A stretch of DNA of 64,000 nucleotides from an uncultured Pseudohongiella sp. (GTDB lineage: Bacteria > Pseudomonadota > Gammaproteobacteria > Pseudomonadales > Pseudohongiellaceae): positions 2,486,932 through 2,550,931 of the forward strand of contig OZ244938.1 in the NCBI GenBank assembly GCA_965222175.1, in the 5' to 3' direction. The notes beneath the pieces were generated by a model, which saw only the letters and a program-made list of their open reading frames with translations, was not told where the DNA came from and did not search any database. Below are positions 22,491-58,167 of this stretch, one piece after another. The position numbers and the translations under genes were made by a program. Position 1 is the first letter of the stretch. Each line of letters opens with the position of its first letter.

Positions 22491-22690
22491 GATTCAAGGA
22501 CTGTCTGAATAAGTATGGAAGTGCTCTGCGGGAATCTGCGGGGCATTACTGCAGGGCGTCGAGCGCCGGGAATGGCCATCGCCCTTGCCAGGCGCGGCAA
22601 CACCGCGGTAGTGCGCGACAGACTCCGATCGCCCCGGATGCACTGCGAAGGAGCGACCGGAACGACCAGTGTCTGATAGGGTAAGAGCGC
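22491..22690 (-). repeat. MITE-like repeat, degenerate copy (inverted relative to 36943..37232)
   Basis: Reverse-complement alignment with the 36.9 kb copy across tatggaagtgctctgcggga..ctgcagggcgtcgagcgccgggaatggccatcgcccttgccaggcgcggcaacaccgcgg..gcgcgacag. Confidence 0.75.
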
Positions 22691-30393: not shown

Positions 30394-30578
30394 ATAAGGA
30401 ACCCCTGATTAATTGTGGAAATACTCTGGCTTTCAGACAAGTTCACTGACGAGGCGCCTAGCCGCCGGCACGCATCGGCCTGTCAAGGCAAGACAACGAT
30501 GACAGTGGTCTCGCCTGGAAGCCCCTTCGGGCGCGGCCTGTCGGGCAGAGCACTTCCATAATCAGTAAGAGGTTCCAC
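30394..30578 (+). repeat. MITE-like repeat, short copy (~185 bp) with imperfect TIRs
   Basis: aaggaacccctgattaattgtggaaatactctggctttcag...gagcacttccataatcagtaagaggttcc. Homologous to 36943..37232 with about 90 bp of internal deletion. Confidence 0.8.
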
Positions 30579-30609: not shown

Positions 30610-31131
30610 TTGGACAGCGGAGTCGTTGACATAAGCTGGGTCGCTTCACTGTTACACGTACTATCATACGTAGTCGTGGTCGGGTTGGTCCTGTGGATGG
30701 GATTCTCACTGCTTGGCTACCTGCATCGGCGCGCCTACAACCTGAAGGCCGCCGAAACGACCAGCGGCGGAAAATCTCCCGCATTCCTCGACAACACCGG
30801 TCGTTCCGAGGAAATCCGCAAGAAAGCGGAAGCATTCGATGAACGGATGGCAGCCGAAGCGACGGAGGAAGCGACAGTCCCTACCGGCAGGGCCTGCAGA
30901 ATTGTCCGCTCTGTAACCATCATTGCGTCGGTTCTGACGTTTGTTGTCGCGATAGTCAGTGCCGTTGCCCGCATACAGATGTATGACAGCTTTGTGGAGA
31001 ACCTGAGCAGTGCCGAGCATTTTTTCAATATTCTCAGAACCTATTGGCTCGGTGCCACAGTAGCCGGACTCATTATTCTGGTCCAGGCCATCCGCATTAC
31101 AATTGCCATAAAAAACAACAAAGTACCCTAG
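30610..31131 (+). CDS. Small integral membrane protein (3 TM), first gene of kinase operon
   Basis: 173 aa. TM helices near residues 10-35, 105-125 and 145-165. NfeD-like positional partner of the downstream SPFH protein. Confidence 0.55.
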   Translation: MDSGVVDISWVASLLHVLSYVVVVGLVLWMGFSLLGYLHRRAYNLKAAETTSGGKSPAFLDNTGRSEEIRKKAEAFDERMAAEATEEATVPTGRACRIVRSVTIIASVLTFVVAIVSAVARIQMYDSFVENLSSAEHFFNILRTYWLGATVAGLIILVQAIRITIAIKNNKVP

Positions 31132-31217
31132 TCGAGCTGCTGGCTTAGTCGGTAGCCAGGAACCCGAATACATCTTCCCAGTTCAGTTTATCAAATATAA
31201 AAACAAGGGGTCCGGAC

Positions 31218-32783
31218 ATGCTTTCCAACAACATCTCACTGAGCGGCGATGAGGTCTTGTGTGAATACGTTCCCATGGAGCAATTCAAGGGGTTTCTGCA
31301 GCAGCGGATCGGCATCGCTCCCGATACGCTCACCGTACTGATCAGGGACGGCCAGGTTGCGGACGTGTCTCACGGGGCGCACCTGTCCGTCGGGGGGATC
31401 TGGCAGTCTGTCAAGGAATCAATAGGTGGAAGCCATGCACTGCAACTGCTCATCGCCGACGCCAGGCCTTTTGAATCCACATTTTCCTTTCAGGGACGCT
31501 CTCGGGACAACGTGGAGGTCGACGCGGAAATCACCCTGCAGATCCAGGTTGATCCACAGTCTGGCAGTAATATTCTTGGCCTGGCGAGCCAGAACAACAT
31601 AACCAATAAATCCGCTGTTTTCGAACGCCTCATCCCCCATTTCAATGATCGGGCACTGCAATCCATCGTCGGCCAGGTGGACGCAACCAGCTTACGTGGT
31701 GCCGTCGACGTACAGGACAAACTGCAGGCAGAAATGCTCAATGTCGCCGAGGATGTGCTCGGCGACATGGGCATTGTGGTGCGGGCGAGTTCGGTTAACT
31801 GGGCTGTCAACGAGGAAGAAATCGCTCAGATGGCCAGTCGGGATCGCGAGCGGGAACAGGCTCTGCTGGATGAAAAGCTGGCGCACTACCAGAAGGAAAT
31901 CGAGAGAGCGGAAACGTCCACCGTGCTGAAACTGGAATCCGACCTGGCAATCGAAAAAATAAAGGCCATGAGCGAAGACGAATTGCGCAAAATGATTGCG
32001 ACGCAGGAAGCGGAATTTGTCGAGGTCAAGGAAGCAGCGAAACGGGCCGCCAGACTCAGTGCCCTGGAAGGAGAAATCGCCGAATTTAACGTCGAACAAC
32101 ATGCCAGGTTCGACAATGCCCTGAACGAGGCCAAGAACGAGGTCGAAGTTAAAAAGATACAGCTTGAGATAAAACAACTGGACCTGAAAACGGAAGAGCT
32201 GGAACGCCGCCAGGAAGTTGCCCTTCACAAGCTTGAGGAGCTGTCCAAGCTGGAGGTTGCCGCGGCTGCCCGGGAAAACCAGATCAAATCCATCGAGGGA
32301 TTGAATGCAGCGGACCTGGCACTCGAACAAGGCAAAACCTCGATTGCCGACGAAAGTGCCGACAGGGCTACACAGCGCCGTCTCGACGAAGCGCGCCAGG
32401 CGGACACCACGGAAATAGAAAAACTGAAACTGCAGCAGGGCATGTCTGCCGATCAATTACTGGCGCTGCAGGCGGGGCTCTCTCCGGAGGTGGCGGCAGT
32501 TTTCGCAGAACGGGCCAAGACAGATCAATCCTCGGCTGCTGAACAGAAAGCCATGATGGAAAAGCTGATTGAGAGCGGAGCCAGGTCCAGTGCAGACGCC
32601 AGGTACTTCTTCGAACAGTTCAAGGAAGGCGTGATCGGGGTAGCAGCCGGAGCCGGTCCGGGCAATGCGGGCAATCCGGCGGCTGGCAGTTCTACCGTCA
32701 GCGCAAATTGTCCACAGTGCAAGGTTGCAAACGCCGCGGGTAATGAATTCTGTGTTGGCTGCGGTGCTCCGCTGCGAGGCTGA
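31218..32783 (+). CDS. SPFH/band-7 (flotillin-like) domain protein with long coiled coil and C-terminal zinc ribbon
   Basis: 521 aa. N-terminal SPFH-like segment (FSFQGRSRDNVEVDAEITLQIQV...LGDMGIVVRASSVNWAVNEEE). About 250 aa of E/K/A-rich coiled coil follows. C-terminus is CPQCKVANAAGNEFCVGCGAPL. Confidence 0.6.
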   Translation: MLSNNISLSGDEVLCEYVPMEQFKGFLQQRIGIAPDTLTVLIRDGQVADVSHGAHLSVGGIWQSVKESIGGSHALQLLIADARPFESTFSFQGRSRDNVEVDAEITLQIQVDPQSGSNILGLASQNNITNKSAVFERLIPHFNDRALQSIVGQVDATSLRGAVDVQDKLQAEMLNVAEDVLGDMGIVVRASSVNWAVNEEEIAQMASRDREREQALLDEKLAHYQKEIERAETSTVLKLESDLAIEKIKAMSEDELRKMIATQEAEFVEVKEAAKRAARLSALEGEIAEFNVEQHARFDNALNEAKNEVEVKKIQLEIKQLDLKTEELERRQEVALHKLEELSKLEVAAAARENQIKSIEGLNAADLALEQGKTSIADESADRATQRRLDEARQADTTEIEKLKLQQGMSADQLLALQAGLSPEVAAVFAERAKTDQSSAAEQKAMMEKLIESGARSSADARYFFEQFKEGVIGVAAGAGPGNAGNPAAGSSTVSANCPQCKVANAAGNEFCVGCGAPLRG

Positions 32784-32821
32784 GGCACACGATAATCAGC
32801 ATCCTACAAATGTGACGGATT

Positions 32822-33973
32822 ATGGGCTACAAAGAGTGTTGCCATCTCGAGGCGGTGGACCCGAACGCCAGTTTCTGCGGCACCTGTCGCACACCGCTAC
32901 TCCGCTGTATTTCTTACCAGGAATGCAAACAGCTGGTTGAACCGTTCCAGCCCTGCCCGGTGTGTCTGGCACCACAACTGGTTATAGATGCGGGCGCGGT
33001 GGTCAGTGCCCAGGTCGGCGAACGTCTTGCCTTACCGATGATCGTGCGGAATCAGATAGATTCCACGGCGCCCATTCTGAGACCGATCTGGGCCAAGCGA
33101 ATCTATAAGCGGGAACGCGACCAGAAGCTTGTGTCGGTCAATATCGACTGGCAGTCTATAGATGCCGGCAAGGAACGCGAGTTTTATGTCGAAACCGGTA
33201 CATTCGGCGCGGGTGGTACGGACAAGGTGGATGTATTTCTGGAACTGGCGACCCGTTCCAAGGAAGGATTCGAAGAGAACCACGTCTTTAAAGGTACCCT
33301 GATGTTTTCCGTAGCCTCGCAGTCCGGTTCGCAACAGGTGGTGCAGAATATCAATCTATCCGGCGCCCACATGGAAGACAATGCATTGCTGCATATCCCC
33401 AGCACCAATACCGGAGGCAGCCAGGAAGAGACAACAGGCAGAACCGTGGACCAGCGCCAGGTAGTGAAACTGGAGCACGTGGAAAGCCTGGAACGGGAAC
33501 TGGGTACGCGTGGCTATACACAGTCCGGAATGCAGGTATCGCGAGCAGCCAAGTTTCGGCTGAGAGGATTCAATGAAGACGATGCACCCAGCTGGGAAGT
33601 CGGACTCGGCGCCAAGGGCCACCTGGCATTTGGGCGCTCTGATCGTGAACGGAGCGACGCCAATCCACTGCCGATGGATGTCCGCCTGCGCTGTTACAAT
33701 GCAACCGGTGAACTGGATGTAGACCAGTCGCTGTTATTGTCCCGACATCATTTTGATTTATTGGTCCTGAACGACCGGCTCGTGGTATTTGCCAGGAGCG
33801 GCAAGGGACTCGCCTTGAACGGGAAAATGCTGGGCTCGAACACGATCACCGATGTGAACGATGGAGATGTTATTGCTCCCTTGGCCGGCCAGGCAAGATC
33901 CCTTTCATTGCAGGTAAAATTCATCAGTGACATGCATGGTTCCGTAAATACAATCGAAGTTGCCCGTCTTTAG
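32822..33973 (+). CDS. Zinc-ribbon + FHA domain protein
   Basis: N-terminal CxxC pairs (CCHLEAVDPNASFCGTCRTPL and CKQLVEPFQPCPVC). C-terminal FHA signature: GRSDRER...SRHHFDLLVLNDRLVVFARSGKGLALNGKML. Confidence 0.65.
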   Translation: MGYKECCHLEAVDPNASFCGTCRTPLLRCISYQECKQLVEPFQPCPVCLAPQLVIDAGAVVSAQVGERLALPMIVRNQIDSTAPILRPIWAKRIYKRERDQKLVSVNIDWQSIDAGKEREFYVETGTFGAGGTDKVDVFLELATRSKEGFEENHVFKGTLMFSVASQSGSQQVVQNINLSGAHMEDNALLHIPSTNTGGSQEETTGRTVDQRQVVKLEHVESLERELGTRGYTQSGMQVSRAAKFRLRGFNEDDAPSWEVGLGAKGHLAFGRSDRERSDANPLPMDVRLRCYNATGELDVDQSLLLSRHHFDLLVLNDRLVVFARSGKGLALNGKMLGSNTITDVNDGDVIAPLAGQARSLSLQVKFISDMHGSVNTIEVARL

Positions 33974-34011
33974 CTGGCCAGGGTGATTTCCTGATATCAA
34001 AGGGAACGACT

Positions 34012-35487
34012 ATGAGTGACAACATAAGTGGTGTTGAGACGGTATACAAGTCAAGTGGGGCCTCAGTAGACGTAGAGCTCAACTTGAATGAACTGTTCGA
34101 CGGTCGGTATATGATAACAGAACGCCTTGGTGCTGGCGGCATGGGTACCGCTTATCTGGCCAGTGATCAGTTGACCGACGAAGAAGTCGTAATCAAGGTG
34201 ATTCATCCGTCATTGATGGACGAAGAGTCCAAGCAACGTATGATTGCCGAAGGAGTCAATGCACGGAAGATCAAGCACCCGAACGTCGTATCGGTACATG
34301 ACGTCAAGGAGGTGGACGGCCAGGTCTACCTGACCATGGAGCACGTCAAGGGCAAGTCATTGCGGAATTGGATGGCTGCCACCATGGCGTCAGGCAGCAA
34401 TGCTCCCGTAAATCACGTCGTGAAAATCATCAGGGAAATTCTATCAGGCCTCACTGCAGCCCATGATGCAGGGGTCATTCACCGGGATTTGAAACCCGAA
34501 AACGTCATGTTGGAGGGAACTCCCGGGGACGGTGAATTCAGGATAAAGATAATTGACTTTGGTATCGCCACCGGCCTGAAGGCGCCAGGCACCACCACTT
34601 CCAAGGGGGCAATTGGCGCGCCGCTTTACATGGCGCCTGAGCAGATGACCATGCCCGACTCCGTGGGCCCCAGTGCCGACATTTACTCAGTGGGACGTAT
34701 GTTTTACGAAATGCTAATGGACGTGCTCCCGGACGGAATGTGGAACCCGCCGAGTGCCACGCGTTCGGATGTCCCACAGGAACTGGACCAGGTGATTCAG
34801 AAAGCTCTGCAACCGCCCCGCAGCCGCTACTCCAGTGCAACAGAATTTTCCACGGCAATCAGCCAATGCATGTCGGGTGAACTGCGGCATGAACGCCCTG
34901 TTGAGGGTGATGAAAAAAATTCGGGACCGTCGCTGGTGGATTTTTTCAAACCCGGGAAGCTTGATTTCAAAAATAAGAAAACGCGAATCTGGGCGGTGGT
35001 GATTGCATTCCTCGTTATTGGTTCAGTGCTCTATGAGGATTACACAAGCCTTGATGACACCATTTACAATGGGTCGGATAATTCCGGATTTAATAGTGAT
35101 TTCAGCATCGACAACACGGCACAGGACTTCGTTGACGATTTCGTCGATGATGTGGCGCCCCCACCGCCCGAAGTACAGGTAAAGCAGGCGGTGACACCAG
35201 CGTCCTCATCACAGGCATGGCGGGGTGGAGATGGCAGTATCTTCGACATGACCGTGACTAACGGAGTTGTAAGCGGCTCCGGGTTTCTACAGCCCTGGGG
35301 CCGAGTCTCCCTGCGCGGCGACCCTGGCAGTTACGTCGACGTCTACAATTACCAGAATCAGAATGTGGCAGCGCTTTCCGGAAACATGGTTCCTTCCAAT
35401 TCCGCTCCGGGTGTCTGGGATTATACCGGCAGTATTCTGGTAAACGGCCAGATTGTCGGCGGTTTTATTTTTCACATTGATCATTAG
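34012..35487 (+). CDS. Hanks-type Ser/Thr protein kinase with one TM helix and ~130 aa extracytoplasmic C-terminal domain
   Basis: Kinase subdomains GAGGMGTAY, VIKV, HRDLKPENVML, DFGIA and APE are all present. TM helix IWAVVIAFLVIGSVLY. The C-terminal domain is unrecognised. Confidence 0.85.
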   Translation: MSDNISGVETVYKSSGASVDVELNLNELFDGRYMITERLGAGGMGTAYLASDQLTDEEVVIKVIHPSLMDEESKQRMIAEGVNARKIKHPNVVSVHDVKEVDGQVYLTMEHVKGKSLRNWMAATMASGSNAPVNHVVKIIREILSGLTAAHDAGVIHRDLKPENVMLEGTPGDGEFRIKIIDFGIATGLKAPGTTTSKGAIGAPLYMAPEQMTMPDSVGPSADIYSVGRMFYEMLMDVLPDGMWNPPSATRSDVPQELDQVIQKALQPPRSRYSSATEFSTAISQCMSGELRHERPVEGDEKNSGPSLVDFFKPGKLDFKNKKTRIWAVVIAFLVIGSVLYEDYTSLDDTIYNGSDNSGFNSDFSIDNTAQDFVDDFVDDVAPPPPEVQVKQAVTPASSSQAWRGGDGSIFDMTVTNGVVSGSGFLQPWGRVSLRGDPGSYVDVYNYQNQNVAALSGNMVPSNSAPGVWDYTGSILVNGQIVGGFIFHIDH

Positions 35488-35763: not shown

Positions 35764-36678
35764 CTAATTATCCCGGAGTCGAGATCGGATTCCTTTCCTG
35801 GCCTCGTCGATTTCCGATTTCAGGTCATCCCCGATTTCCTTACGCAATTCTGCAAGTAACGATTCCGTCGACTTTTTCATCTCATCCATTGTCGGGCCGG
35901 CCAGGCTGAATCCTGGCGCTTTTTCGATTGCACCGATGGTCCAGAAGTGCGCAGGGTCGGAATAAGAAGCCAGCGTTTCGAAAGGCAGTCGGAAGTATCC
36001 TCCGTCAGCCCATTCAGGACCCCAGGAATTTCTGACAATCCAGACCTTAGCCGGTATATCGTAGCCGACAAGCAGCATGGCATGGCCGCTTGCCGGTCGT
36101 CTGGCTCGCGTGCCGTCCACCGGCATGCTTCCGGTTCTGGCAGCCTCCTGGTAATACTCGCCGGGAATGTAAGTACCGAAAACGACCGGCAGCCCCACTG
36201 CCAGCGCAGCCATGGCCGAATTACCGAGTTCCGTGCGAGCGTATTGCACGGCTTCGTAACTCATCGCGTTCTGATAAGCCTGTTGAGACGGCATGGTGGC
36301 GGTCATCGCCGGATTGAATGGCCAGAGGCGCTCCTCGCAGGCGCCATAGGCCAGAACCGCAGCCATGGCATGATGGATGAAACTCCCGGTATCCTGGGAC
36401 TGGGTATCTGACATCCTGCGGGCATTGTAGTAGACAAACAGCCGCGACATATCAGTAACCCCACTGCCTGCCTTGCGTTGGTGATATTCCAGCGCTCCGA
36501 CAACGGCGTTGGCCGTACAGGAGTTGGTCTGGCCCTGATTCTCCACAGGCGAACAGAGCGATCGGAGATCCACTTTTTCCGGCACTGAACCCGGTGGCGC
36601 CACTAGCGCGGGGGCGGTGCTGGGCTTGGTTTCGAAAAGACAGCCATTGAGCGGATGTTCATTCCAGGCATCAGTCAT
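35764..36678 (-). CDS. Papain-like (C1 family) cysteine peptidase, no signal peptide
   Basis: Catalytic Cys context QGQTNSCTANA, His GHAMLLVGYD, and Asn/Trp NSWGPEWADGGYF. A coiled-coil-like C-terminal tail follows. Confidence 0.75.
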   Translation of the reverse strand: MTDAWNEHPLNGCLFETKPSTAPALVAPPGSVPEKVDLRSLCSPVENQGQTNSCTANAVVGALEYHQRKAGSGVTDMSRLFVYYNARRMSDTQSQDTGSFIHHAMAAVLAYGACEERLWPFNPAMTATMPSQQAYQNAMSYEAVQYARTELGNSAMAALAVGLPVVFGTYIPGEYYQEAARTGSMPVDGTRARRPASGHAMLLVGYDIPAKVWIVRNSWGPEWADGGYFRLPFETLASYSDPAHFWTIGAIEKAPGFSLAGPTMDEMKKSTESLLAELRKEIGDDLKSEIDEARKGIRSRLRDN

Positions 36679-36942: not shown

Positions 36943-37232
36943 ACTAGGGAACCTCTGATCAATTATGGAAATACTCTGGCTTTCAGGCGAGTTCACTGAC
37001 GAGGCGCCTTGCCGCCGGCATGCGTCGGCCTGTCAAGGCGAGGCAACCCTTTTAAGCCAACAAGGGCAGTGCGCTCGCCTGAAAGCCCCGACCGGCGGGG
37101 CCTGTCGGGCGCCACTGCGGTGTTGTCGCGCTTGGCAAGGGCGACGGCCATTCCCGGCGCACGACGCCTTGCAGTAGCGCCCGACAGACTCCCGCAGAGC
37201 ACTTCCATAATTGATCAGAGGTTCCCTGGAGT
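36943..37232 (+). repeat. MITE-like element (~290 bp) with near-perfect ~28 bp terminal inverted repeats
   Basis: The left end actagggaacctctgatcaattatggaa is the exact reverse complement of the right end ttccataattgatcagaggttccctggagt. The interior is GC-rich with nested inverted repeats (ggctttcaggcgag/ctcgcctgaaagcc; ctgtcgggcgc/gcgcccgacag). Confidence 0.85.
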
Positions 37233-37480: not shown

Positions 37481-38647
37481 ATGATAATAAAATACATCAA
37501 GCGAGAATGTATCCGGATACCGGTTCTGAGCTTACTGATTTTCAGCTCGGCCGCCTCGGCACAGGATACAAGCGCAGAATCGACCTATGGTTCGGCAGAA
37601 CTGACAGGCAATTTCCTCCCTGACCCCCACAGCGTCCAGTTGCAGGCGGGAGGCGCCATCGACGCCAGCGCCATCGACGGCTGTATTGGATACATCAGCA
37701 ACGCACCGGACTACGAAATAAGCTACTCCGACCGCGCTGAATTCGATCTGAGCGTTTTCGTGGTAAGTGACACCGATACCACGCTGGTGGTCAATGCACC
37801 ATCAGGAGAGTGGTACTGCAACGACGATTTCGACGAAGCCGGCGGGACCAACCCGGGCATGGTGTTTTCACCCCCGGAAGAAGGTGTTTACGACATCTGG
37901 GTAGGGACTTACGAAGCCACAGACTCCTTTCCGGCGGCGGAGCTTGTAGTGACCGAAATCGGCCCGCCCTGGCTATTGACCTCCTCGGATCCCGGGAATG
38001 ACTCGGGGGAACCGACTTTAAGCAGTTCCGGTACGGGGTTCGTGGTAAGCCGTAATGGCCACGTGCTGACCAATAACCACGTGATCGAGGGCTGCAGTCG
38101 GACTACCTTTCAGTTACGTGGCGGGCTTCCCCAGGAAGCCAGCCTGATAGCAAGCAATGCAACAACCGACCTGGCGTTGTTGAAAACCTCTCTTGCCACA
38201 ATCCCGGCAATGTTCCGGGGGCCGAGGAGGCTGCGCCTGGGTGACGAGGTCATCGTCTACGGTTTTCCATTGCTGGGTGATCTATCCTCTCAGGGGAACC
38301 TGACCTATGGGATTGTCAGCGCCCTCAGTGGACTGGACGATGATTTGAGCAGACTGCAGATGACCGCGCAGATTCAACCCGGTAACAGCGGTGGACCGGT
38401 AATGAATCGTTCCGGTGAAATCGTCGGCGTCGTCGTGGAGACTGCCAATGAAGACTATTTTCGCGAACAACGGGGCACCGACACCCAGAATCTCAATTTC
38501 GCCGTACGGGATTCACTGGCTGTCTCGTTCCTGGATACCAACAACGTGGACTATCAATTGGGCGCGGCCGACGGTGAATCGATGGCCATTGCCGATATAG
38601 CAGAAATCGCGCAGGATTTTACCGGGCTGATTCTTTGTTATCAGTAG
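37481..38647 (+). CDS. Secreted trypsin-like (S1/DegP-type) serine peptidase with N-terminal beta-rich pre-domain
   Basis: Signal peptide present. Catalytic triad context TNNHVIEGC (His), DLALLKT (Asp), GNSGGPV (Ser). Confidence 0.75.
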   Translation: MIIKYIKRECIRIPVLSLLIFSSAASAQDTSAESTYGSAELTGNFLPDPHSVQLQAGGAIDASAIDGCIGYISNAPDYEISYSDRAEFDLSVFVVSDTDTTLVVNAPSGEWYCNDDFDEAGGTNPGMVFSPPEEGVYDIWVGTYEATDSFPAAELVVTEIGPPWLLTSSDPGNDSGEPTLSSSGTGFVVSRNGHVLTNNHVIEGCSRTTFQLRGGLPQEASLIASNATTDLALLKTSLATIPAMFRGPRRLRLGDEVIVYGFPLLGDLSSQGNLTYGIVSALSGLDDDLSRLQMTAQIQPGNSGGPVMNRSGEIVGVVVETANEDYFREQRGTDTQNLNFAVRDSLAVSFLDTNNVDYQLGAADGESMAIADIAEIAQDFTGLILCYQ

Positions 38648-38750
38648 ATGACTGAGATCTTAGTGAGTGTGTTGTGTTCAGGATGGTACTTCGCAATGCA
38701 GGGAGAATACACAAGCGCCAATCGACATGCCTGTGATGCTGTAGCTGAAG

Positions 38751-39548
38751 TCAGCGTGGAAGTTTGACCGCATAGGCAGTAAATCCAAGATAAAGGCCCA
38801 CAAAAACGTACAGTCCAAGGATAAATTGCAGCAATGCAGGACCCTGTTCAAAGCGGGGCCCCCTGGTATCCAGCCTTACCAGGATCATGTCTTCAATTGC
38901 TTTCAGATCATGTTCGCTCATAGCCCGGGCAACGATTCTGTTATAAAAGTTACGCTGGCCGTATTTCCAGCTCACAACGTAACCGAAGCGATGATCGGCC
39001 GAAAGTTCTTCGTACTCTCCATGTATTGCCCAGACCCTCACCGGAACGGATGGATCCCATTGTTCAGTAACAAAAGGATCGGCATAGGTCAGCTTTCTGG
39101 ACCGCACCGTGGTTTCAAGACCTACTCCGTAGTCATGGAAGGCAAAACCGTCACGGAATTCCACAACGCCACGAATATCTCCTTCAGGTAATTCTGTGAC
39201 CGAAACTGGGCCAGACAACGGACCGTCGGGCAGATAGCGCCAAGGCACCTCAATGAAGATCAGGACAATCAACGGCAGTATAAAAGCAAGAACGGCAGCG
39301 CTGAGTGCATTCCACCGAACGAACCCTGAAGCGATTTTCGGGGAAAAATAATCTGAGTCACAACCGAAAAAATTCAGCAGCCGTTCAACGATCAGTAGAT
39401 CAGTCGATATTGACAGTAGCGCCCAACCCAACATTTTGTTGCTCATCCAATGGATGTTCAACAGAGCATAAAAAATGCAGAATCGAATCAACTGAAAAAG
39501 TATCAGGCTGACCCACAATCTGACCCATAGCCTGCTACTACCGTTCAA
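38751..39548 (-). CDS. Integral membrane protein, unknown function
   Basis: 265 aa with TM helices at both ends. Confidence 0.45.
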   Translation of the reverse strand: MNGSSRLWVRLWVSLILFQLIRFCIFYALLNIHWMSNKMLGWALLSISTDLLIVERLLNFFGCDSDYFSPKIASGFVRWNALSAAVLAFILPLIVLIFIEVPWRYLPDGPLSGPVSVTELPEGDIRGVVEFRDGFAFHDYGVGLETTVRSRKLTYADPFVTEQWDPSVPVRVWAIHGEYEELSADHRFGYVVSWKYGQRNFYNRIVARAMSEHDLKAIEDMILVRLDTRGPRFEQGPALLQFILGLYVFVGLYLGFTAYAVKLPR

Positions 39549-40042
39549 AATTTTGCCAGCTTCCTCAATTCAGCAATTTTTATTGTTTCGGCCCTGAGAT
39601 CGAGAACAAAGGGTAGTTTCCGACCGGCAAAGTTCAGCTTGATCCACGGAGCGTCGACTGTCTGATCCAGTTGCAGCCTGCCCTCGAAACGGGCAGCTTT
39701 CCTGATGTCTCTGACGCTGAAAACACGCTGCCGAAGACCAAAGCCGGACGGAGACAGGGTTTGCACGAGAATTTTTTCACCGTCCCTCTCAAGTTTCAAA
39801 AGGTATGAAGTTGCATACAGGAGCATACCCCCACCAAATGCACAACCGGCCAACGCGATGCCACCACCCATAACCAGCCGCATTCCAAAGGGTTTCAATA
39901 CCCCCCCATCGGCTTCTGCAAGTCCGTAGCCATTGAAAAGAATCCAGCCGGAGTACAGGCACACCACACTCAGAAGTAACGCGAACCAGAGCACCAGACG
40001 AACTTTCAATGCCTGCTTTCTGTTTTCGTATAGTATTCTCAA
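39545..40042 (-). CDS. Membrane protein, unknown function
   Basis: 165 aa with 3 TM helices. 4-bp overlap with the downstream ORF. Confidence 0.45.
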   Translation of the reverse strand: MRILYENRKQALKVRLVLWFALLLSVVCLYSGWILFNGYGLAEADGGVLKPFGMRLVMGGGIALAGCAFGGGMLLYATSYLLKLERDGEKILVQTLSPSGFGLRQRVFSVRDIRKAARFEGRLQLDQTVDAPWIKLNFAGRKLPFVLDLRAETIKIAELRKLAKF

Positions 40043-40389
40043 TACGGCTCACCTGAATTCGTGCCTGGGTCGGCGTGAAAGTCGAAACGGAACCAAAGGT
40101 CAATCGTGGTCGAATCCAGCAAATAAAGTTTGTCGCAGAAGCGGAACCCATGCCTTGGCGCTAGCTCCTGGCAGCGGACCATCAGTTTATGGAACAGTAC
40201 TTCGTATAGCATAAAGATTTGTTGTTCATTGATACGGGTTAGAGATGTCCTGGTGATGCGAGCGCTGCCAAGATGGTAGGGCTTGAATCTCCCTGTTATT
40301 ACAGTGTGGTTGCACATCCATTGTACCAATTTATTGAGATTCAGGCCTTTATTAATGCAAAGTTATGGGACAACAGCGATCAGCCCTAC
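40039..40389 (-). pseudogene. IS4-family (DUF4372-type) transposase remnant: IS left end fused to codons ~88-160 only
   Basis: Translation YHLGSARITRTSLTRINEQQIFMLYEVLFHKLMVRCQELAPRHGFRFCDKLYLLDSTTIDLW matches the IS4-family N-terminal region. The ORF shares a ~110 bp 5' leader with 42297..42409 but skips the first ~87 codons. It is truncated after DSTTIDL. Confidence 0.65.
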
Positions 40390-40575
40390 AAATGCCGGGC
40401 GACCTGGCAAGACCCGGATTTTAAAATATCTGTCCTAGCGCGAACGTATTTCGGTCTTGTTTTCAACAGTGTGCGCAATCGATTTCTTAAGCTGTATTTG
40501 AATCCACACGACCGGAAGCCAGCTCATCCCGATAAGAAAATAGATTCCAACTGTCAGCAATAGCCATGTAGTGTT

Positions 40576-40788
40576 TCAATCATAGCCAACCTCGTGAAGA
40601 AGCCAGAATCCTGTCAATGGTTGCAGAATTACCGCTGGAATCGTAAATATACAGTCAGCCAACACCGTATTTCTGACTGCATAGTATTTGCCGTGCTGAT
40701 TGGGAATTAAATAGGAACGAAACATAAAAAATACGATACCTGCTAATAGCAAACAGGACGGTTGAGCCAATGATGTGCAGAATGACAT
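40576..40788 (-). pseudogene. N-terminal fragment of a DUF2269 membrane protein paralog
   Basis: 70 aa (IVFFMFRSYLIPNQHGKYYAVRNTVLADCIFTIPAVILQPLTGFWLL) homologous to the N-terminus of the 28367..28876 protein. Truncated where the IS remnant begins. Confidence 0.55.
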
Positions 40789-40883
40789 TCATAACTGAAT
40801 CTTGAAATCGGCCAGTTACTGGCCCTATACAGAGAATTCACATACCAGTCTGAGGAGTGTACCTGTAAACCCCTCCGCGGACC

Positions 40884-41987
40884 TCAGGTATATCCTTTGC
40901 CACCACAGGAATTGCACCGCCCGTAGCCAAAACATTTGAGACAGTTAGAATCCGCTGAAACGTTAATACCTCTGCCTCCACAGAAAAAGCAGCTTCCGGA
41001 ACCTCCGCAAGTGAAGCACGACGCGCCATAACCCTGGGGGGTTTTAGTGATCCTATCCATTGATCCACTGCCAAGTGAAGCACGCAAGTCAGCCACGTCG
41101 GATTGAATTTCACGACGAGACTGATCCAGCTGACTACGTAAACTGTCCGGATTCCCATTGGAGATCGGCGCGGGTGTGGCAGGGGCGCTTTGTGGAACGG
41201 GCTTGACCAGCGAGAAATTTCCTTTTGGCTCCAGCTCCAGAATTATCCAGAAGGTATCTGGAGGCGAAAACAAAGCCATCTCCTTAAACGGAATCTTACA
41301 ATAACCATCGTTGCCCCATTCCTTACCCCAGCTGTTTCTTACGATAAAGTGACCCGCTGTGGAATCATAACCAACAATCAACATGCAGTGACCACTGGCT
41401 GGCTGGGAAACCAGTTCTGCCGGCTCTGAAGGCGGCATAAGACCAGTTTTCCCTGCTTCTTCATAAAGCCTTTGGGGAAGAAAGGTACCGAATACGACCG
41501 GGTAGTTGTTTGCGAGAGCCAGCATCGCACCATCCGGACCGGGAACCCGTGCATACTGTATTGCTTCATGTAACTTGCCGTTTTCGTATGCCTGTTGCGG
41601 TGGTTCCTTTATATAATTGTTGATGTCATAAGGCCAGAACTTGGATTCGCAGGCGCCAAAGGCCATTACCGCAGCCATTGCCTCGTTAATTGCCGCTCCA
41701 GAATCCTGCTCAGTCATCCCTTTCAAACGGCGAGTATTATAGTAGACAAACAGTCGGCTCAGTTCCGTCGAGTGTCCATCGCGCCTGGTATAGGCATACT
41801 CCAGTGCCCCCACACAGGCATTTGCTGTGCAACTGCCGATCCGCCCCTGATCTTCAACAGGTGAACAGTATTGTCGCAAATCAACTTTGGTGGGTAGATC
41901 CTGTTGCCCGAATTCAAGCCTATAATCACCGGCTTCAATACTCCCGAAGTCACACCCGTCAAGTCGATTTCCATCACTTGTCAACAT
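40884..41987 (-). CDS. Papain-like C1 cysteine peptidase fused to C-terminal DnaJ-type zinc finger (4x CxxCxGxG)
   Basis: Paralog of the 35764..36678 protein (QGRIGSCTANA; GHCMLIVGYD; NSWGKEWGNDGYC). C-terminus carries four DnaJ-type repeats: CFTCGGSG, CFFCGGRG, CLKCFGYG, CNSCGGKG. Confidence 0.75.
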   Translation of the reverse strand: MLTSDGNRLDGCDFGSIEAGDYRLEFGQQDLPTKVDLRQYCSPVEDQGRIGSCTANACVGALEYAYTRRDGHSTELSRLFVYYNTRRLKGMTEQDSGAAINEAMAAVMAFGACESKFWPYDINNYIKEPPQQAYENGKLHEAIQYARVPGPDGAMLALANNYPVVFGTFLPQRLYEEAGKTGLMPPSEPAELVSQPASGHCMLIVGYDSTAGHFIVRNSWGKEWGNDGYCKIPFKEMALFSPPDTFWIILELEPKGNFSLVKPVPQSAPATPAPISNGNPDSLRSQLDQSRREIQSDVADLRASLGSGSMDRITKTPQGYGASCFTCGGSGSCFFCGGRGINVSADSNCLKCFGYGRCNSCGGKGYT

Positions 41988-42107
41988 CTATCAAGCCTCA
42001 CGTTTTTCAACATCAGTTAAAAATGGGCCGGCTTCTTTTATCTGCCATACCTCGAATCCCGGTATACCAGGTGAGCAGCCAGCCCACCGCTATCAAACGT
42101 AACCCAA

Positions 42108-42409
42108 TTACAGACTGCATCCACCATTTTCAGAGTTAGGTCTGTATCGCCATGAAGATTTCCTGAATTCCCCGTAGTCTGGCCACCGAGACATTTTACG
42201 CAGTTTCTGGCCAACATGATGCCGATTGGCCAGGGATTCGAATTCATGTCTCGGAATGAATTTTAGCAATTGAGCGAAGACCGTATGATGATGTGCCAAG
42301 GCTTGAATCTCCCTGTTATTACAGTGTTTGGTTGCACATCCATTGTATCAACTTGTTGAGATTCAGGCCTTTTTTAATGCAAAGTTATGGAACAGCAGTG
42401 ATCTGATTC
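42108..42409 (-). pseudogene. IS4-family transposase remnant: IS left end plus first ~38 codons
   Basis: TTG-start ORF reading AHHHTVFAQLLKFIPRHEFESLANRHHVGQKLRKMSRW (DUF4372 N-terminus), then unrelated sequence. Its leader is about 90% identical to 40283..40389. Confidence 0.65.
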
Positions 42410-42778
42410 TGAAAAATTGGGTAGAATTTACGCAACAATATTCTTGACGATTCAGCTGCAGGACTGGCGAAGTCTCCGGAAAATTCCGGATTGGAAGACA
42501 GCCTTCCCGATCCGGCACTCAAGAGAGACTGCAGCGAGTATTGTGCCGTCTGTAATATCGCGCGACGCTGCTATTATTGCAATGGCACGGGACGAATCTC
42601 TGGTGACGGTTGCTGGAAATGCTCCGCATCCGGCAGATGTTACGCCTGCATGTACTGGTAACCTTTCAGGAAAACCTTCTTTGAATCGTCTCAAACCATG
42701 GCATCACTACCAGGTTAAATTGTCAACACTGTGAGATTCCGGCAAGCAACGCCGACAGTAAGACGGCAAGGTAACAGA

Positions 42779-43753
42779 CTACTCAGCGAGCCGGGATTGT
42801 TCATCATCCCAACGGTAGCCTCTGTTCAGCAGGCAAAGGACGTAGCGGTCCGAAGTTGCCGGGTCTTCCCGATGCTGTTTCTCGATACGCAGGTCGTGGG
42901 TCGCGGGATGCCAGTCATTGTCATTGACAATGCCGTGAGGGACCAGGGTACCGTCACCGGCCTGTAGCAGGAACGCCTGGGTGCTGCGACCCTGCAGCAA
43001 GTCAGAAGCGACCGGGGCAGATTGACTACCGACTGACCGGGCCACCGCCATGCAAGCCACTGCCTGGTCGTAACCGGACCAGTCTGGTGCATTGACAGGC
43101 GGCAACAGTACCTGGATCGAAACCGGTTGCTGGCGCACGCCCCCGGGCAACATGACCACTGCCGAATCCGGGAGAATTTCCGGTGATCGTTCGAACCGGA
43201 ACCAGTAGCTGGCTTTAAAAGCAATGGGGACAACAGCCAGTGCGCCCGCGCTTAATTCGTGGTTCTCCATGATCAGGGCACCATCCGCAGAGCGAAACAG
43301 GCGCCTTTCCACGGAACTGCGGGCCAGCACCGGCAGAAACGGCGGCACGCCACCGAACTGCCAGTCACTATTGTGGAGCACCAGTTGCCCATCCACACAA
43401 TCAAATTCGTCACGGGCAATCTGTCTTTCAAACAGCAGCTCGTCACCAACCCAGGCCTGAATAGCCAGAGCGGACTGGACGCCAACGGCCAGGGTCAGCC
43501 TGGTAACCGCCAGCCGTTCATAATAGTACAGACGAGGCTCGGAAATTTTCAACGGAAAAAAAAGGTCGGCCAACACCACCTGGTCGCCGTCGTCCCAGAC
43601 GCCAAAATTTTCAAACGAGCCGTCAAGGCTGACACAATCCGCCGCAGCCTGCTGCAACGGGGGTGACCAGTCAGCCGGGTACGGGTTTGCAGTACAGCCG
43701 GTCAGAACCAGCACCATTGGCAACCGCAGATAAGAACTGCAATGGTGAGACAT
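42779..43753 (-). CDS. Lipoprotein, unknown function
   Basis: Lipobox LVLTGC. Coding T8 tract at 43557..43564 (LFFPL). Confidence 0.55.
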   Translation of the reverse strand: MSHHCSSYLRLPMVLVLTGCTANPYPADWSPPLQQAAADCVSLDGSFENFGVWDDGDQVVLADLFFPLKISEPRLYYYERLAVTRLTLAVGVQSALAIQAWVGDELLFERQIARDEFDCVDGQLVLHNSDWQFGGVPPFLPVLARSSVERRLFRSADGALIMENHELSAGALAVVPIAFKASYWFRFERSPEILPDSAVVMLPGGVRQQPVSIQVLLPPVNAPDWSGYDQAVACMAVARSVGSQSAPVASDLLQGRSTQAFLLQAGDGTLVPHGIVNDNDWHPATHDLRIEKQHREDPATSDRYVLCLLNRGYRWDDEQSRLAE

Positions 43754-44429
43754 TACCGATTCCCTTCCCCGGACTGGTCGCCGGATTCAACCCGGTCATA
43801 TACAAACCACACCTGTTCACCCTTGATATACATGGGAAACACCAGGAAAAATGTGCCGGTGAGCCTGCCCACGTAATGTACAGCCAACTCTCCGTCTTCG
43901 GTAAATGCCAGCGTATACTCATCTCTTTCCGCAGCCGGTAAAAAAATTCCCCCGGTCCAGAACAAACCCGCCACTACACCATCGAGCACCAGGGCATTCC
44001 AGCGGGTCGTGAAGCGCCAGCGACCGTCATCGCAGTCCCTGTCTCGTGGCTGCAGGATGACGCTCTCATCAAACCTGGAGCCTTCAGACCACGCGTACAG
44101 GACCAGTCTGTTGTCATTATCCCTATCAAACTGAACGCGGTCGATGGCAAAACCGGCCAACTCACCCCCCATATCAGCGAGGACAGTCGTGGAGTGGTTG
44201 TCTGCTGCTCACTGATTGTGCGGCCCGTATTGGCATAAAAACCGGTGGGCGATTGACAGGCGGCCGCAGTGTTGGCTACCAGTCGGGGTTCCTGCAACGC
44301 TTTCGTCACACAGCCACTCGGAACAAGTAGTGCCAGGAGCAGAGGAGCCAGGATTAACAAATTGATCCCGATGAAGCGGCCAGGATTGCCGCGCAGCGCC
44401 CGGTTTACCAATCGGTGGCTGGTGAACAT
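43753..44429 (-). pseudogene. Lipoprotein gene with frameshift at G6 homopolymer (44164..44169)
   Basis: Signal peptide with lipobox (LLLALLVPSGC) is in one frame. The protein-like remainder (GGELAGFAIDRVQFDRD...) is in the -1 frame. The two frames meet at the gggggg run, and one extra G restores a single ORF. Confidence 0.55.
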
Positions 44430-44558
44430 TTGAGCCACCGATAATAGTATCGACCTCGCAGCGGAGATGGCCGTGGTAACACAGTCAATCTCGACCATTC
44501 CCGTCACCTGCCCTCCCCGATTAAAGAATTGAACTTCTTCTTGCGGATTCCACCTGGA

Positions 44559-57135: not shown

Positions 57136-58167
57136 TCAATTGGTCCCGCACATTTCCACTGCCGGCGTCCCTGCTCGCAGTCGCCTCGCCAGGTACAGCA
57201 ATGGCATCAATCCTATCACAGCCAGGTAAAATCCGGCTTCCGGTTTCATCGTGGCCAACCCCCCCAGCGGCGCCAGCCACAATAACGTGATAGTAATCAC
57301 GCCGACAGTCACCCGGCGATGGCTCCCGGCACGTCGCGCCGCATGCTGGTAGCCATGGTTGCTGTGCCCCTGGTACCAGGTCTGTCGGTCGATAAGGCGG
57401 TATGCCAGGGTGTAGGTTGAATCGACCACGAAGACTCCCAGCAGCAACAACCAGACCCAGGGGGTAGAACCGCCATTGGCGATGCCGGTCAGGGCCAGCG
57501 CCCCGATCAGGTAGGCCAGGAAGTTACTGCCGGCGTCGCCCATGAATATCTTCGCCGGTGGCCAGTTCCAGAACAGGAAGCCCAGGGTAACGGCAATAGC
57601 CAGGGAAGCCACGGGCAACTCCCGGGTCTCGCCCGCCAGCATAGCCAGCAGACATGACACCAGCATGACAATAACCGCCTCGCTGGCAGCCAGCCCGTCG
57701 ATGCCATCCATGAAATTAAACAGGTTCAACAGCCAGACGAAGGAAACCACGGCAAGAAGGTTGATTAACGGGGAGTTTTCCAGGCGCAGTGCACCAAACT
57801 GTATTGCCGGCAGGTCACCAACCCAGTAAATCACCCAGAGGGCGCTGGCCAGCTGGGCAGCAAGACGCCAGCGGATACTCAGACTCCTCAGATCATCGAT
57901 GTAGCCCACCAGGGCAAGAGGCAGACAACCGGCAAAAAGCAACAACGTGGTTGCATCCACCATGCCCCGGCCATTGTAGAACAGCAGTGTCACCAGGAAC
58001 ACCACCGCCATGGCGATGCCGCCACCGGAGGGCATGGGCCGCTTGTGGGCGCTGCGGTCCACTGGTCGATCGAACCAGTGCCTGCTGATGCTGACTCGGA
58101 TGAGGCCCCAGGTAAGCAGTACCGTGATACAAAACGAAACCGTCAGCGATCCCCAGCCAATCATCAA
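57136..58167 (-). CDS. Undecaprenyl-phosphate GlcNAc-1-phosphate transferase family (WecA/WbpL, MraY-like)
   Basis: 343 aa, polytopic. VGYIDD motif. Confidence 0.8.
   Translation of the reverse strand: MMIGWGSLTVSFCITVLLTWGLIRVSISRHWFDRPVDRSAHKRPMPSGGGIAMAVVFLVTLLFYNGRGMVDATTLLLFAGCLPLALVGYIDDLRSLSIRWRLAAQLASALWVIYWVGDLPAIQFGALRLENSPLINLLAVVSFVWLLNLFNFMDGIDGLAASEAVIVMLVSCLLAMLAGETRELPVASLAIAVTLGFLFWNWPPAKIFMGDAGSNFLAYLIGALALTGIANGGSTPWVWLLLLGVFVVDSTYTLAYRLIDRQTWYQGHSNHGYQHAARRAGSHRRVTVGVITITLLWLAPLGGLATMKPEAGFYLAVIGLMPLLYLARRLRAGTPAVEMCGTN

What the first reader, a model, noticed from the sequence alone, without database searches (positions are those of the whole stretch)
40039..42409. Two degenerate remnants of one IS4-family (DUF4372-type) element in direct orientation bracket the peptidase/DUF2269-fragment cassette
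A ~110 bp leader (ending ...gggagattcaagcc) occurs twice: at 42297..42409 and at 40283..40389. In the upstream copy it runs into transposase codons 1-38 (AHHHTVFAQLLKFIPRHEF...RKMSRW), then unrelated DNA follows. In the downstream copy the same leader is fused directly to codon ~88 (YHLGSARITRTSLTRINEQQ...DSTTIDLW), and the gene is cut off at 40039. Between them lie a DUF2269 N-terminal fragment (paralog of the 28367 gene) and the C1-ZnF peptidase. The arrangement looks like a decayed composite transposon or an IS-mediated segmental duplication that copied genes from elsewhere in this window.
Basis: seen in the sequence. Interest (0 to 1): 0.55.

Follow-up and report, generated by a model that had tools for sequence, protein, structure and literature searches.

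The report
Dead IS4 relics bound acquired cassette
Two broken copies of one insertion sequence mark the edges of a 2.3-kb piece of foreign DNA, carrying a cysteine-protease gene and a dead membrane-protein gene, that landed inside and destroyed this strain's own related protease gene; this is ordinary mobile-element biology, unusually well resolved.

Summary
A ~100-nt repeat (40280-40378 and 42300-42400, 93% identical, found only twice in 64 kb) is the left inverted repeat plus 5' leader of a 1272-bp IS4-family element related to ISAbe18. Relic B keeps IS positions 1-218 (codons 1-39). Relic A keeps positions 1-101 joined to 311-~497 (codons 71-~132) by a 209-bp microhomology deletion. No DDE domain or right end survives anywhere in the window.

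Four near-identical sister-strain contigs (92-97% nt) settle what the structure is. They match the window collinearly except that window 40096-42400 (2305 bp) replaces 1022 bp holding the first 305 codons of a resident 396-aa C1-ZnF peptidase, pepX. One edge is exactly the IRL terminus of relic B. The other is the truncated interior of relic A.

The passenger genes are foreign. The peptidase is 47% identical to pepX and 45% to the other paralogue in the window, but 67% to its best outside hit. The DUF2269 pseudogene is 36-44% identical to the resident copy and 68% to its best outside hit. The "decayed composite-transposon-like cassette" reading is therefore broadly supported, and "segmental duplication from elsewhere in this window" is refuted. 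This is a new member of a known kind, of low general interest.

The parts
42183..42400 (-). IS relic B, IS positions 1-218. It comprises the IRL (CACTGCTGTTCCATAAC, terminus at 42400), the 101-nt leader with its conserved hairpin and SD, the TTG start at 42299, and transposase codons 1-39 (DUF4372 N-terminus). It is truncated between IS positions 218 and ~230.
   Evidence: blastn to the L004 IS gives 1-218 <-> 42400-42183 at 85%. Pfam DUF4372 1.1e-12. Breakpoint alignment. Terminus alignment.
42400..42401 (.). Junction J1. The IS terminus of relic B is joined precisely to target DNA inside the resident pepX gene. Sister strains read ...ATCAGAT|AGCAGC...; the window reads ...ATCAGAT|CACTGCTGTTCC...
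41988..42182 (-). U1: 195 nt of foreign DNA of unknown origin between the relic B breakpoint and the peptidase start. No homology was found.
   Evidence: no Rfam hit
40884..41987 (-). Cassette gene: an intact 367-aa papain-family (C1) cysteine peptidase with a C-terminal 4xCxxC zinc-finger-like tail. It is a xenologue of the resident pepX.
   Evidence: Pfam Peptidase_C1 1e-16. Catalytic Q47/C53/H200/N218 are invariant. 47% identical to pepX, 67% to L009, 59% to the L006/L010 operon peptidases.
40379..40788 (-). Cassette pseudogene: DUF2269 (155-aa subfamily) in a single frame, with in-frame stops at 40576-40578 and 40435-40437. Its 3' end (~20 codons) was removed by insertion of relic A.
   Evidence: tblastn to the resident paralogue, residues 23-139. 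Pfam DUF2269 hits on both halves. Best outside hit 68%.
40096..40378 (-). IS relic A. It comprises the IRL (CGCTGTTGTCCCATAAC, terminus at 40378, with CA mutated to CG), the leader (to 40280), a 209-bp internal deletion (IS 102-310) at the CAAGC(C/T) microhomology (40280-40285), and then codons 71-~132 (40278->40096).
   Evidence: blastn gives IS 4-101 <-> 40375-40280 (81%) and IS 305-496 <-> 40285-40094 (72%), with a 6-nt overlap. tblastn 64% aa.
40095..40096 (.). Junction J2. The truncated IS interior (position ~497) is fused to native DNA 53 bp upstream of ORF165. Relative to the sister strains, 1022 bp of host DNA (pepX codons 1-305 plus 105 bp upstream) and IS positions ~498-1272 are missing.
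42401..42661 (+). Orphaned 3' remnant of the resident peptidase gene pepX (the last ~87 codons, including the ZnF tail; it contains the 'znf56' ORF 42491-42661). It is decaying: 83% identical to the sisters, with a 12-nt indel and three in-frame stops at its 5' end.
40043..40095 (-). Native upstream region of ORF165 (SD AGGTGAG). It forms the tail of the spurious chimeric ORF 40039-40329.

Best explanation
Window 40096-42400 is a 2305-bp block of horizontally acquired DNA. Both of its ends are relics of one ISAbe18-like IS4-family insertion sequence, and both relics point the same way.

How it most likely arose:
1. The block entered the chromosome by a transposase-made joint. The left inverted repeat (IRL) of relic B is joined base-precisely to target DNA inside the resident C1-ZnF peptidase gene pepX.
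2. The most likely vehicle was a composite, Tn-like unit that used the IRL of copy B and the IRR of copy A as its outer ends.
3. It carried a foreign C1-ZnF peptidase gene and a DUF2269 gene that copy A had already interrupted in the donor.
4. Three deletions then immobilised it. One removed IS positions ~219-1272 of B. A 209-bp microhomology deletion removed codons 1-70 of A. A third ran from IS position ~498 of A, through its IRR, into 1022 bp of host DNA (pepX codons 1-305 and its promoter region).
5. Neither relic keeps a DDE domain, so the structure is now a fixed scar. The incoming peptidase gene is still intact and may functionally replace the pepX gene it destroyed.

Shown here: the block is strain-specific; the J1 joint sits exactly at the IRL; the polarity is clear because a pepX fragment is left behind; the passengers are foreign; the three deletions are mapped.

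Inferred: the whole block moved as one transposon; the order and location (donor or recipient) of the deletions; any functional replacement of pepX.
For: - Repeat and mapping: the repeat is unique and non-random. Both relics map to a single 1272-bp reference element that has matching IRs and a 9-bp TSD in L005. L001 bridges the two coding fragments.
- Family: DUF4372 and NF033592 IS4-family in relatives. The nearest named relative, ISAbe18, is IS4 family, 1269 bp, with 9-bp DRs, and is active (PMC6863613, PMC8552602).
- Sister strains: contigs L011-L014 are collinear with the window. Their homology breaks are at 42401 and 40095, which are the IRL-B terminus and the relic A truncation point.
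- Polarity: the window retains the 3' ~87 codons of pepX as a decaying fragment (83% identical, against 94-98% for intact neighbouring genes).
- Foreign origin: see the identity matrix, the DUF2269 subfamily assignment, and block GC of 47.6% against 54.9% for the window and 57% for the sisters' pepX.
- No other piece of the IS exists in the 64 kb.
Against: - The IRR of copy A and any 9-bp target duplication are gone, so transposition of the whole block as one unit cannot be demonstrated.
- No second copy of the block, and no donor context, was found in genome or metagenome collections. Mobility of the unit is therefore unproven.
- The peptidase-DUF2269 adjacency is not seen in any relative.
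- The two leaders differ by 7% and share no derived changes relative to L001. This fits either long decay in place or copies that were already different on arrival.
- The sister strains are 3-8% diverged, so junction microhomologies cannot be read to single-base certainty.
Confidence: 0.75

Rival explanations
1. IS-mediated or other segmental duplication: the peptidase and DUF2269 genes between the relics were copied from 35.8-36.7 kb and 28.4-28.9 kb of this same window.
For: Paralogues of both genes do exist in the window.
Against: - The paralogues are only 45% and 44% identical at the amino-acid level, with no nucleotide similarity beyond a 35-nt motif.
- The cassette peptidase is closer to proteins of other organisms (59-67%) than to either resident paralogue (45-47%).
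- The DUF2269 pseudogene is 68% identical to an outside 155-aa subfamily.
- The short C1 paralogue lacks the ZnF tail. I did not check their arrangement.
Confidence: 0.02
2. Recombinational capture: a complete IS copy first transposed into pepX, creating J1. Foreign DNA carrying IS copies then recombined with it, using the IS as portable homology, and this loaded the cassette. Deletions followed.
For: This explains the precise IRL joint at J1 equally well. It also explains why the block starts with IS positions 1-218 and ends within IS sequence. The IS family is common in related environmental genomes.
Against: It needs an extra step compared with direct transposition. The sister strains carry no IS at this site or anywhere in the 20 kb examined. 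There is no hybrid-IS signature that could be tested.
Confidence: 0.15
3. The block is the surviving left edge of a larger inserted element (a bigger transposon or island). Relic A was an internal IS, not the right-hand terminal IS, and the J2 deletion removed an unknown amount of additional foreign DNA.
For: J2 is an illegitimate deletion joint inside IS-A, so nothing constrains what once lay beyond it. The low-GC zone extends beyond the block (38.7-42.7 kb).
Against: The low-GC flanks (ORF165, ORF265) are present and collinear in all sister strains, so they are native. No trace of further foreign DNA remains.
Confidence: 0.08
4. Two independent in-situ insertions of the IS on either side of genes that were already resident, followed by decay. 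On this view nothing was acquired.
For: The leaders share no derived substitutions. Relic A clearly inserted into a DUF2269 gene.
Against: The genes between the relics are absent from the four sister contigs, which instead have an intact pepX at this site. The window still holds the 3' end of pepX, so the sister state is the ancestral one.
Confidence: 0.02

Closest known systems
ISAbe18 (IS4 family; Acinetobacter; ISfinder name as cited in PMC6863613 and PMC8552602)
   Same: - The transposase has the same architecture: a DUF4372 N-terminus plus DDE_Tnp_1, 383 aa, NF033592.
- The IR core is the same, CACTGCTGTCCCATA.
- The length is similar: 1269 bp against 1272 bp for the reference copy L005.
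- Both make 9-bp target duplications (PMC6863613).
- The leader hairpin is the same, with compensatory changes.
   Different: Identity is only ~50% at the amino-acid level over the surviving fragments and ~67-71% in the leader, so this is a different IS species. The window copies are non-autonomous relics lacking the catalytic domain and the IRR.
IS4-family composite transposons Tn10 (IS10) and Tn5 (IS50) (from my own knowledge; not tested here)
   Same: Two IS4-family copies bracket passenger genes, the outer IS end is joined precisely to target DNA, and the target duplication is 9 bp.
   Different: In Tn5 and Tn10 the flanking IS copies are inverted and at least one is functional. Here they are in direct orientation and both are dead. 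The right outer end and the TSD are deleted, and the unit has not been seen anywhere else.
IS10-type 'fold-back inhibition' of transposase translation (from my own knowledge; not tested here)
   Same: A conserved long-range stem in the leader pairs an upstream segment with the SD region next to the start codon (14 bp, 5 covarying pairs).
   Different: This is only a structural analogy. No expression data exist for this IS group, and the element's own promoter was not located.

Membership tests
IS4 family (ISAbe18-like, NF033592 / DUF4372 + DDE_Tnp_1) | DUF4372 N-terminal domain of the transposase | tested here: met
   Relic B codons 3-39 match PF14294 positions 1-37, at 48.3 bits against a cutoff of 25.
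IS4 family (ISAbe18-like, NF033592 / DUF4372 + DDE_Tnp_1) | DDE_Tnp_1 catalytic domain (DDE triad) | tested here: not met
   It is absent from both relics and from the whole 64-kb window (tblastn with L004 and ISAbe18). It is present in close relatives (P0003 has PF01609, and NF033592 scores 145.9 bits against a cutoff of 115). The relics therefore descend from a family member but are not functional members themselves.
IS4 family (ISAbe18-like, NF033592 / DUF4372 + DDE_Tnp_1) | Terminal inverted repeats beginning 5'-CA, shared with relatives | tested here: met
   IRL-B is CACTGCTGTTCCATAAC and IRL-A is CGCTGTTGTCCCATAAC. The consensus CAYTGCTGTCCCATAA is present at both ends of L004 and L005 and at the IRL of ISAbe18. 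No IRR is present in the window.
IS4 family (ISAbe18-like, NF033592 / DUF4372 + DDE_Tnp_1) | 9-bp target-site duplication | not testable with these tools
   The right ends of both relics are deleted. A 9-bp TSD is seen in relative L005 (ACATAACAT) and is reported for ISAbe18 (PMC6863613).
Composite (compound) transposon | Two copies of the same IS bracketing passenger genes | tested here: met
   Relics A and B come from one IS type, lie in direct orientation, and bracket the peptidase and the DUF2269 pseudogene.
Composite (compound) transposon | An empty site in related genomes, with the boundary exactly at an outer IS end | tested here: met
   This holds for the left outer end only. Sister-strain homology stops at 42401, and the IRL-B terminus is at 42400.
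Composite (compound) transposon | Second outer IS end, and a TSD flanking the whole unit | tested here: not met
   The right boundary (J2) lies inside the transposase gene at IS position ~497. IRR-A and any TSD are deleted, along with 1022 bp of host DNA.
Composite (compound) transposon | The same unit found at other genomic locations (evidence that it moves as a unit) | tested here: not met
   A 28-mer leader scan of 185,579 species genomes found only L001, which lacks the cassette. A metagenome pattern scan found nothing. A protein-guided metagenome scan found no close relative of the cassette peptidase.

The most novel reading that the evidence does not exclude
The block moved as a 'lopsided' transposon, in which a 218-bp relic supplying only a solo IRL was paired with the IRR of a then-intact downstream copy. 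It delivered a xenologous C1-ZnF peptidase into the resident homologue, so that insertion and functional replacement happened in a single event. The incoming gene might now be transcribed from the relic's leader promoter. This would be IS-driven, in-place xenologous gene displacement within a conserved FHA / Ser-Thr-kinase / peptidase system.
Probability: 0.2. Interest if true: 0.35.

Novelty: new member of a known kind. Interest (0 to 1): 0.2.

Why it matters
The main value is for annotation and for reading the history of this locus.
- ORFs 40039-40329, 42108-42299, 40576-40788 and 42491-42661 are pseudogene debris. They should not be annotated as genes.
- The 367-aa peptidase is a horizontally acquired xenologue that replaced the strain's own pepX.
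- The locus is a well-resolved example of an IS-bounded cassette arriving and then being locked in place by three deletions, two of which have mapped junctions.
- The comparison also defines a previously unnamed ISAbe18-like element: 1272 bp, IR CAYTGCTGTCCCATAA, a 9-bp TSD, and a conserved leader hairpin over the SD.

None of this challenges current understanding.

Tried and rejected
1. Inversion hypothesis. In relatives L006, L007 and L010 the C1-ZnF peptidase directly follows a g1-g4 (FHA/kinase) operon. The window's copy is ~5.4 kb away on the other strand. I therefore suspected that an IS-mediated inversion had displaced it, with the relic B breakpoint as the junction. I rejected this because the sister strains share the window's gene order and have pepX at that position, and no IS relic lies at 35.5-35.8 kb.
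2. A metagenome scan with a 33-base conserved leader pattern gave 0 hits.
3. A protein-guided metagenome scan for the cassette peptidase returned only distant relatives, 40% identity or less.
4. Exact-protein look-ups of the window's peptidase, ORF165 and P0121 returned 'not on record'. The source genome, a 4.79-Mb contig, could not be retrieved or named.
5. U1 (41988-42182) was compared with kinase C-termini and with the L009 upstream region. There was no homology.
6. The context of the nearest DUF2269 relative (L041) has no adjacent peptidase, so no donor arrangement was recovered.
7. The sigma-70 promoter and terminator scan found nothing on the minus strand that could show expression of the cassette gene.
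8. There are no Rfam families or tRNAs in or near the block.
9. An IRL-like 16-mer at 57989 has 3 mismatches. About 0.5 such matches are expected by chance in 128 kb (my own calculation), so I dismissed it.
10. My first plasmid tblastn call failed because the reading frame was wrong. It was repeated correctly.
Full report
**1. The observation**

Everything in this finding lies on the minus strand. A direct repeat of about 100 nt occurs at 40280-40378 and 42300-42400. A 28-nt core is identical in both copies and occurs nowhere else in the 64 kb, where 0 matches are expected from 100 shuffles. blastn reports 104 nt at 91%, and the leader-only alignment gives 93% with a single 2-nt indel. Similarity stops abruptly on both sides.

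Downstream of the 42.3-kb copy is an ORF starting at TTG 42299. Its first 39 residues match Pfam DUF4372 positions 1-37 (1.1e-12). Downstream of the 40.3-kb copy the reading frame gives YHLGSARITRTSLTRINEQQ…DSTTIDL.

**2. What the repeat is**

A scan of species-representative genomes with the 28-mer found one locus, L001, in a Pseudomonadales MAG. It carries the same leader followed by codons 1-82: MANHDTVF…KLYHLGSARVTRTS. That single copy spans both window fragments, so the two fragments come from one type of element.

Protein searches returned hundreds of DUF4372/DDE_Tnp_1 transposase fragments. Contigs carrying the closest ones gave a reference element:
- L004:57-1328 begins CATTGCTGTCCCATAAAT and ends with its inverse, ATTTATGGGACAGCAATG.
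- L005:3901-5172 is a complete 1272-bp copy with both inverted repeats and a 9-bp target duplication, ACATAACAT.

An alignment of seven left ends shows that the window repeat begins exactly at this conserved terminus, at 42400 for copy B and 40378 for copy A, where CA has mutated to CG.

The nearest named relative is ISAbe18, which is about 50% identical at the amino-acid level. It scores as NF033592, IS4 family. It is reported as IS4 family, 1269 bp, with 9-bp direct repeats (PMC6863613), and as active with outward promoter activity (PMC8552602).

The 'leader' is therefore the IRL plus the 5' UTR. It contains a 14-bp long-range stem joining IS positions ~30-43 to ~90-103. The stem covers the GGAG Shine-Dalgarno sequence and abuts the TTG start. 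Five of its pairs show compensatory changes across seven sequences. The single-sequence fold has a z-score of -2.15.

**3. Breakpoints**

Against the 1272-bp reference:
- **Relic B** is IS 1-218 (42400->42183, 85%). Homology ends just after codon W39.
- **Relic A** is IS 4-101 (40375->40280, 81%) plus IS 305-496 (40285->40094, 72%). The two matches overlap by 6 nt, CAAGCC in the leader against CAAGCT at codons 68-70. This means a 209-bp deletion of IS 102-310 between short direct repeats, which fused the leader to codon 71.
- **Relic A's 3' end:** homology ends at about IS 497.
- **Rest of the element:** no other piece, neither DDE domain nor IRR, exists anywhere in the window.

**4. What lies between the relics**

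The 367-aa ORF at 40884-41987 is a papain-family C1 peptidase (1e-16). It keeps the invariant Gln/Cys/His/Asn catalytic residues and a C-terminal 4xCxxC tail.

The DUF2269 sequence is more than an N-terminal fragment. A single frame runs from 40788 to 40379 and aligns to residues 23-139 of the resident paralogue. It has in-frame stops at 40576-8 and 40435-7, and it ends exactly at the IRL of relic A. Copy A therefore inserted into a DUF2269 gene.

**5. The decisive comparison**

The short C1 paralogue (P0209) is recorded on several metagenome contigs. Four of them, L011-L014, cover this locus at 92-97% nucleotide identity, in reverse orientation. They are collinear with window 25630-48538 except for three small indels and one replacement. 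In that replacement, L011 5841-6862 (1022 bp) corresponds to window 40096-42400 (2305 bp).
- **J1:** homology stops at 42401, one base outside the IRL-B terminus. The sisters read …ATCAGAT|AGCAGC… and the window reads …ATCAGAT|CACTGCTGTTCC….
- **J2:** homology resumes at 40095, where relic A's IS homology ends.

In the sisters, the replaced DNA encodes the first 305 codons, plus 105 bp upstream, of an intact 396-aa C1-ZnF peptidase (pepX) on the opposite strand. The window still holds pepX's last ~87 codons at 42401-42661, which includes the small 'ZnF' ORF 42491-42661. The sister arrangement is therefore ancestral and the window arrangement is derived.

That pepX fragment is 83% identical to the sisters, with a 12-nt indel and three in-frame stops. 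The 53 bp at J2 are 75% identical. Intact neighbouring genes are 94-98% identical. The event is therefore old, and the relics could have decayed where they now lie.

**6. Origin of the passengers**

- **Peptidase:** it is 47% identical to pepX and 45% to the short paralogue at 35764-36678. It is 67% identical to L009 and 55-59% to the operon-terminal peptidases of L006, L007 and L010.
- **DUF2269 pseudogene:** it belongs to a 155-aa subfamily, with a best hit of 68%. It is only 36-44% identical to the resident 169-aa gene.
- **GC content:** the block is 47.6%, the window 54.9%, and the sisters' pepX 57%.
- **Nucleotide similarity:** the only match to the rest of the window is a 35-nt conserved motif.

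These results refute a local segmental duplication and point to horizontal acquisition. No donor or second copy was found. The nearest DUF2269 relative has no adjacent peptidase.

**7. Mechanism**

Shown:
- A foreign block whose left edge is a base-precise IS-end/target joint was inserted into pepX.
- Three deletions removed B 219-1272, A 102-310, and A ~498-IRR together with 1022 bp of host DNA. These left two relics with no catalytic domain.

Inferred as most likely: the block moved as a composite unit, using IRL-B and IRR-A as its outer ends.

Not excluded:
- Loading of the cassette by homologous recombination onto an IS already resident at the site.
- The block being the surviving edge of a larger insertion.

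The leaders give no help in deciding. A-B is 93%, B-L001 is 96% and A-L001 is 93%, and A and B share no derived changes.

**8. A discarded idea**

In L006, L007 and L010 the C1-ZnF peptidase directly follows a conserved four-gene FHA/Ser-Thr-kinase operon, whose orthologues sit at 30610-35487 in the window. I first suspected an IS-mediated inversion. The sister strains show that this species already has pepX about 5 kb from the operon, in the same gene order. No inversion is needed.

**9. Verdict**

The 'decayed composite-transposon-like cassette' reading is supported as far as the surviving sequence allows. The 'segmental duplication from this window' reading is refuted. Biologically this is an ordinary IS-mediated acquisition scar involving an unnamed ISAbe18-like IS4-family element. 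It is useful for annotation and as a well-resolved example, but it is not surprising.

Noticed in passing
window 36950-37232, 30415-30567, 22504-22627: A MITE-like repeat family, 79-85% identical between copies, with ~30-bp terminal inverted repeats (GGAACCTCTGATCAATTATGGAAGTGCTCTG … CAGAGTATTTCCATAATTGATCAGAGGTTCC). The first two copies are absent from sister-strain contigs L011-L014. At the 30415 site the sisters carry only two abutted TIR halves, GGAACCTCTGAAATTAATCAGGGGTTCC.
   Followed up: partly
window 30610-35487 (+), 35764-36678 (-), 37481-38647 (+); loci L006, L007, L010: A conserved operon encodes a ~170-aa protein, a ~520-560-aa protein (weak Band_7), an FHA-domain protein and a Ser/Thr kinase. 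In three distant relatives it ends with the C1-ZnF peptidase. In this species a short C1 paralogue without the ZnF tail and a trypsin-like protease lie next to it, and the ZnF-type peptidase (pepX) is ~5 kb away. In one search, several pairs of ZnF-type and short C1 peptidases appear to share a contig. This may be an uncharacterised kinase/FHA/protease system.
   Followed up: partly
window 42300-42400 and 40280-40378; L001, L003, L004, L005, L002 left ends: The IS leader has a conserved 14-bp long-range stem that pairs positions ~30-43 with the SD region just upstream of the TTG start. Five pairs show compensatory changes, including GG/CC to AA/TT in ISAbe18. It looks like an IS10-style translational fold-back control, which as far as I know has not been described for this IS group.
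   Followed up: partly
window 44021-44328: A 308-bp stretch is present in the window but absent from the sister strains, and is bounded by an 8-nt direct repeat, CTGGCRCT. It is either a microhomology deletion in the sisters or an insertion here. It changes the ORFs at 43753-44172 and 43974-44507.
   Followed up: no
L001:4098-4440, L004:57-1328, L005:3901-5172: Most of the close copies of this IS that I examined are defective. L001 is truncated after codon ~82, next to IS630-like and IS30-like genes. L004 has a frameshift. L005 has a split ORF despite intact IRs and a TSD. In L003 the transposase ORF ends after 185 aa, ahead of an unrelated HTH_Tnp_1 gene. Most database hits are 130-230-aa fragments. 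Part of this may come from assemblies breaking at repeats.
   Followed up: no
window 38700-42700: A lower-GC zone (44-51%, against 55-60% in the flanks) is wider than the acquired block. It includes ORF265 and ORF165, which are native because all sister strains have them. GC content alone would have placed the island boundary in the wrong position.
   Followed up: yes
window 38751-39548 (ORF265) vs L011 7440-8240: The ORF265 orthologues differ by 63 gap columns between the window and the sisters (768 aligned positions at 95%). This suggests an in-frame indel or a different start in this hypothetical membrane-protein gene.
   Followed up: no
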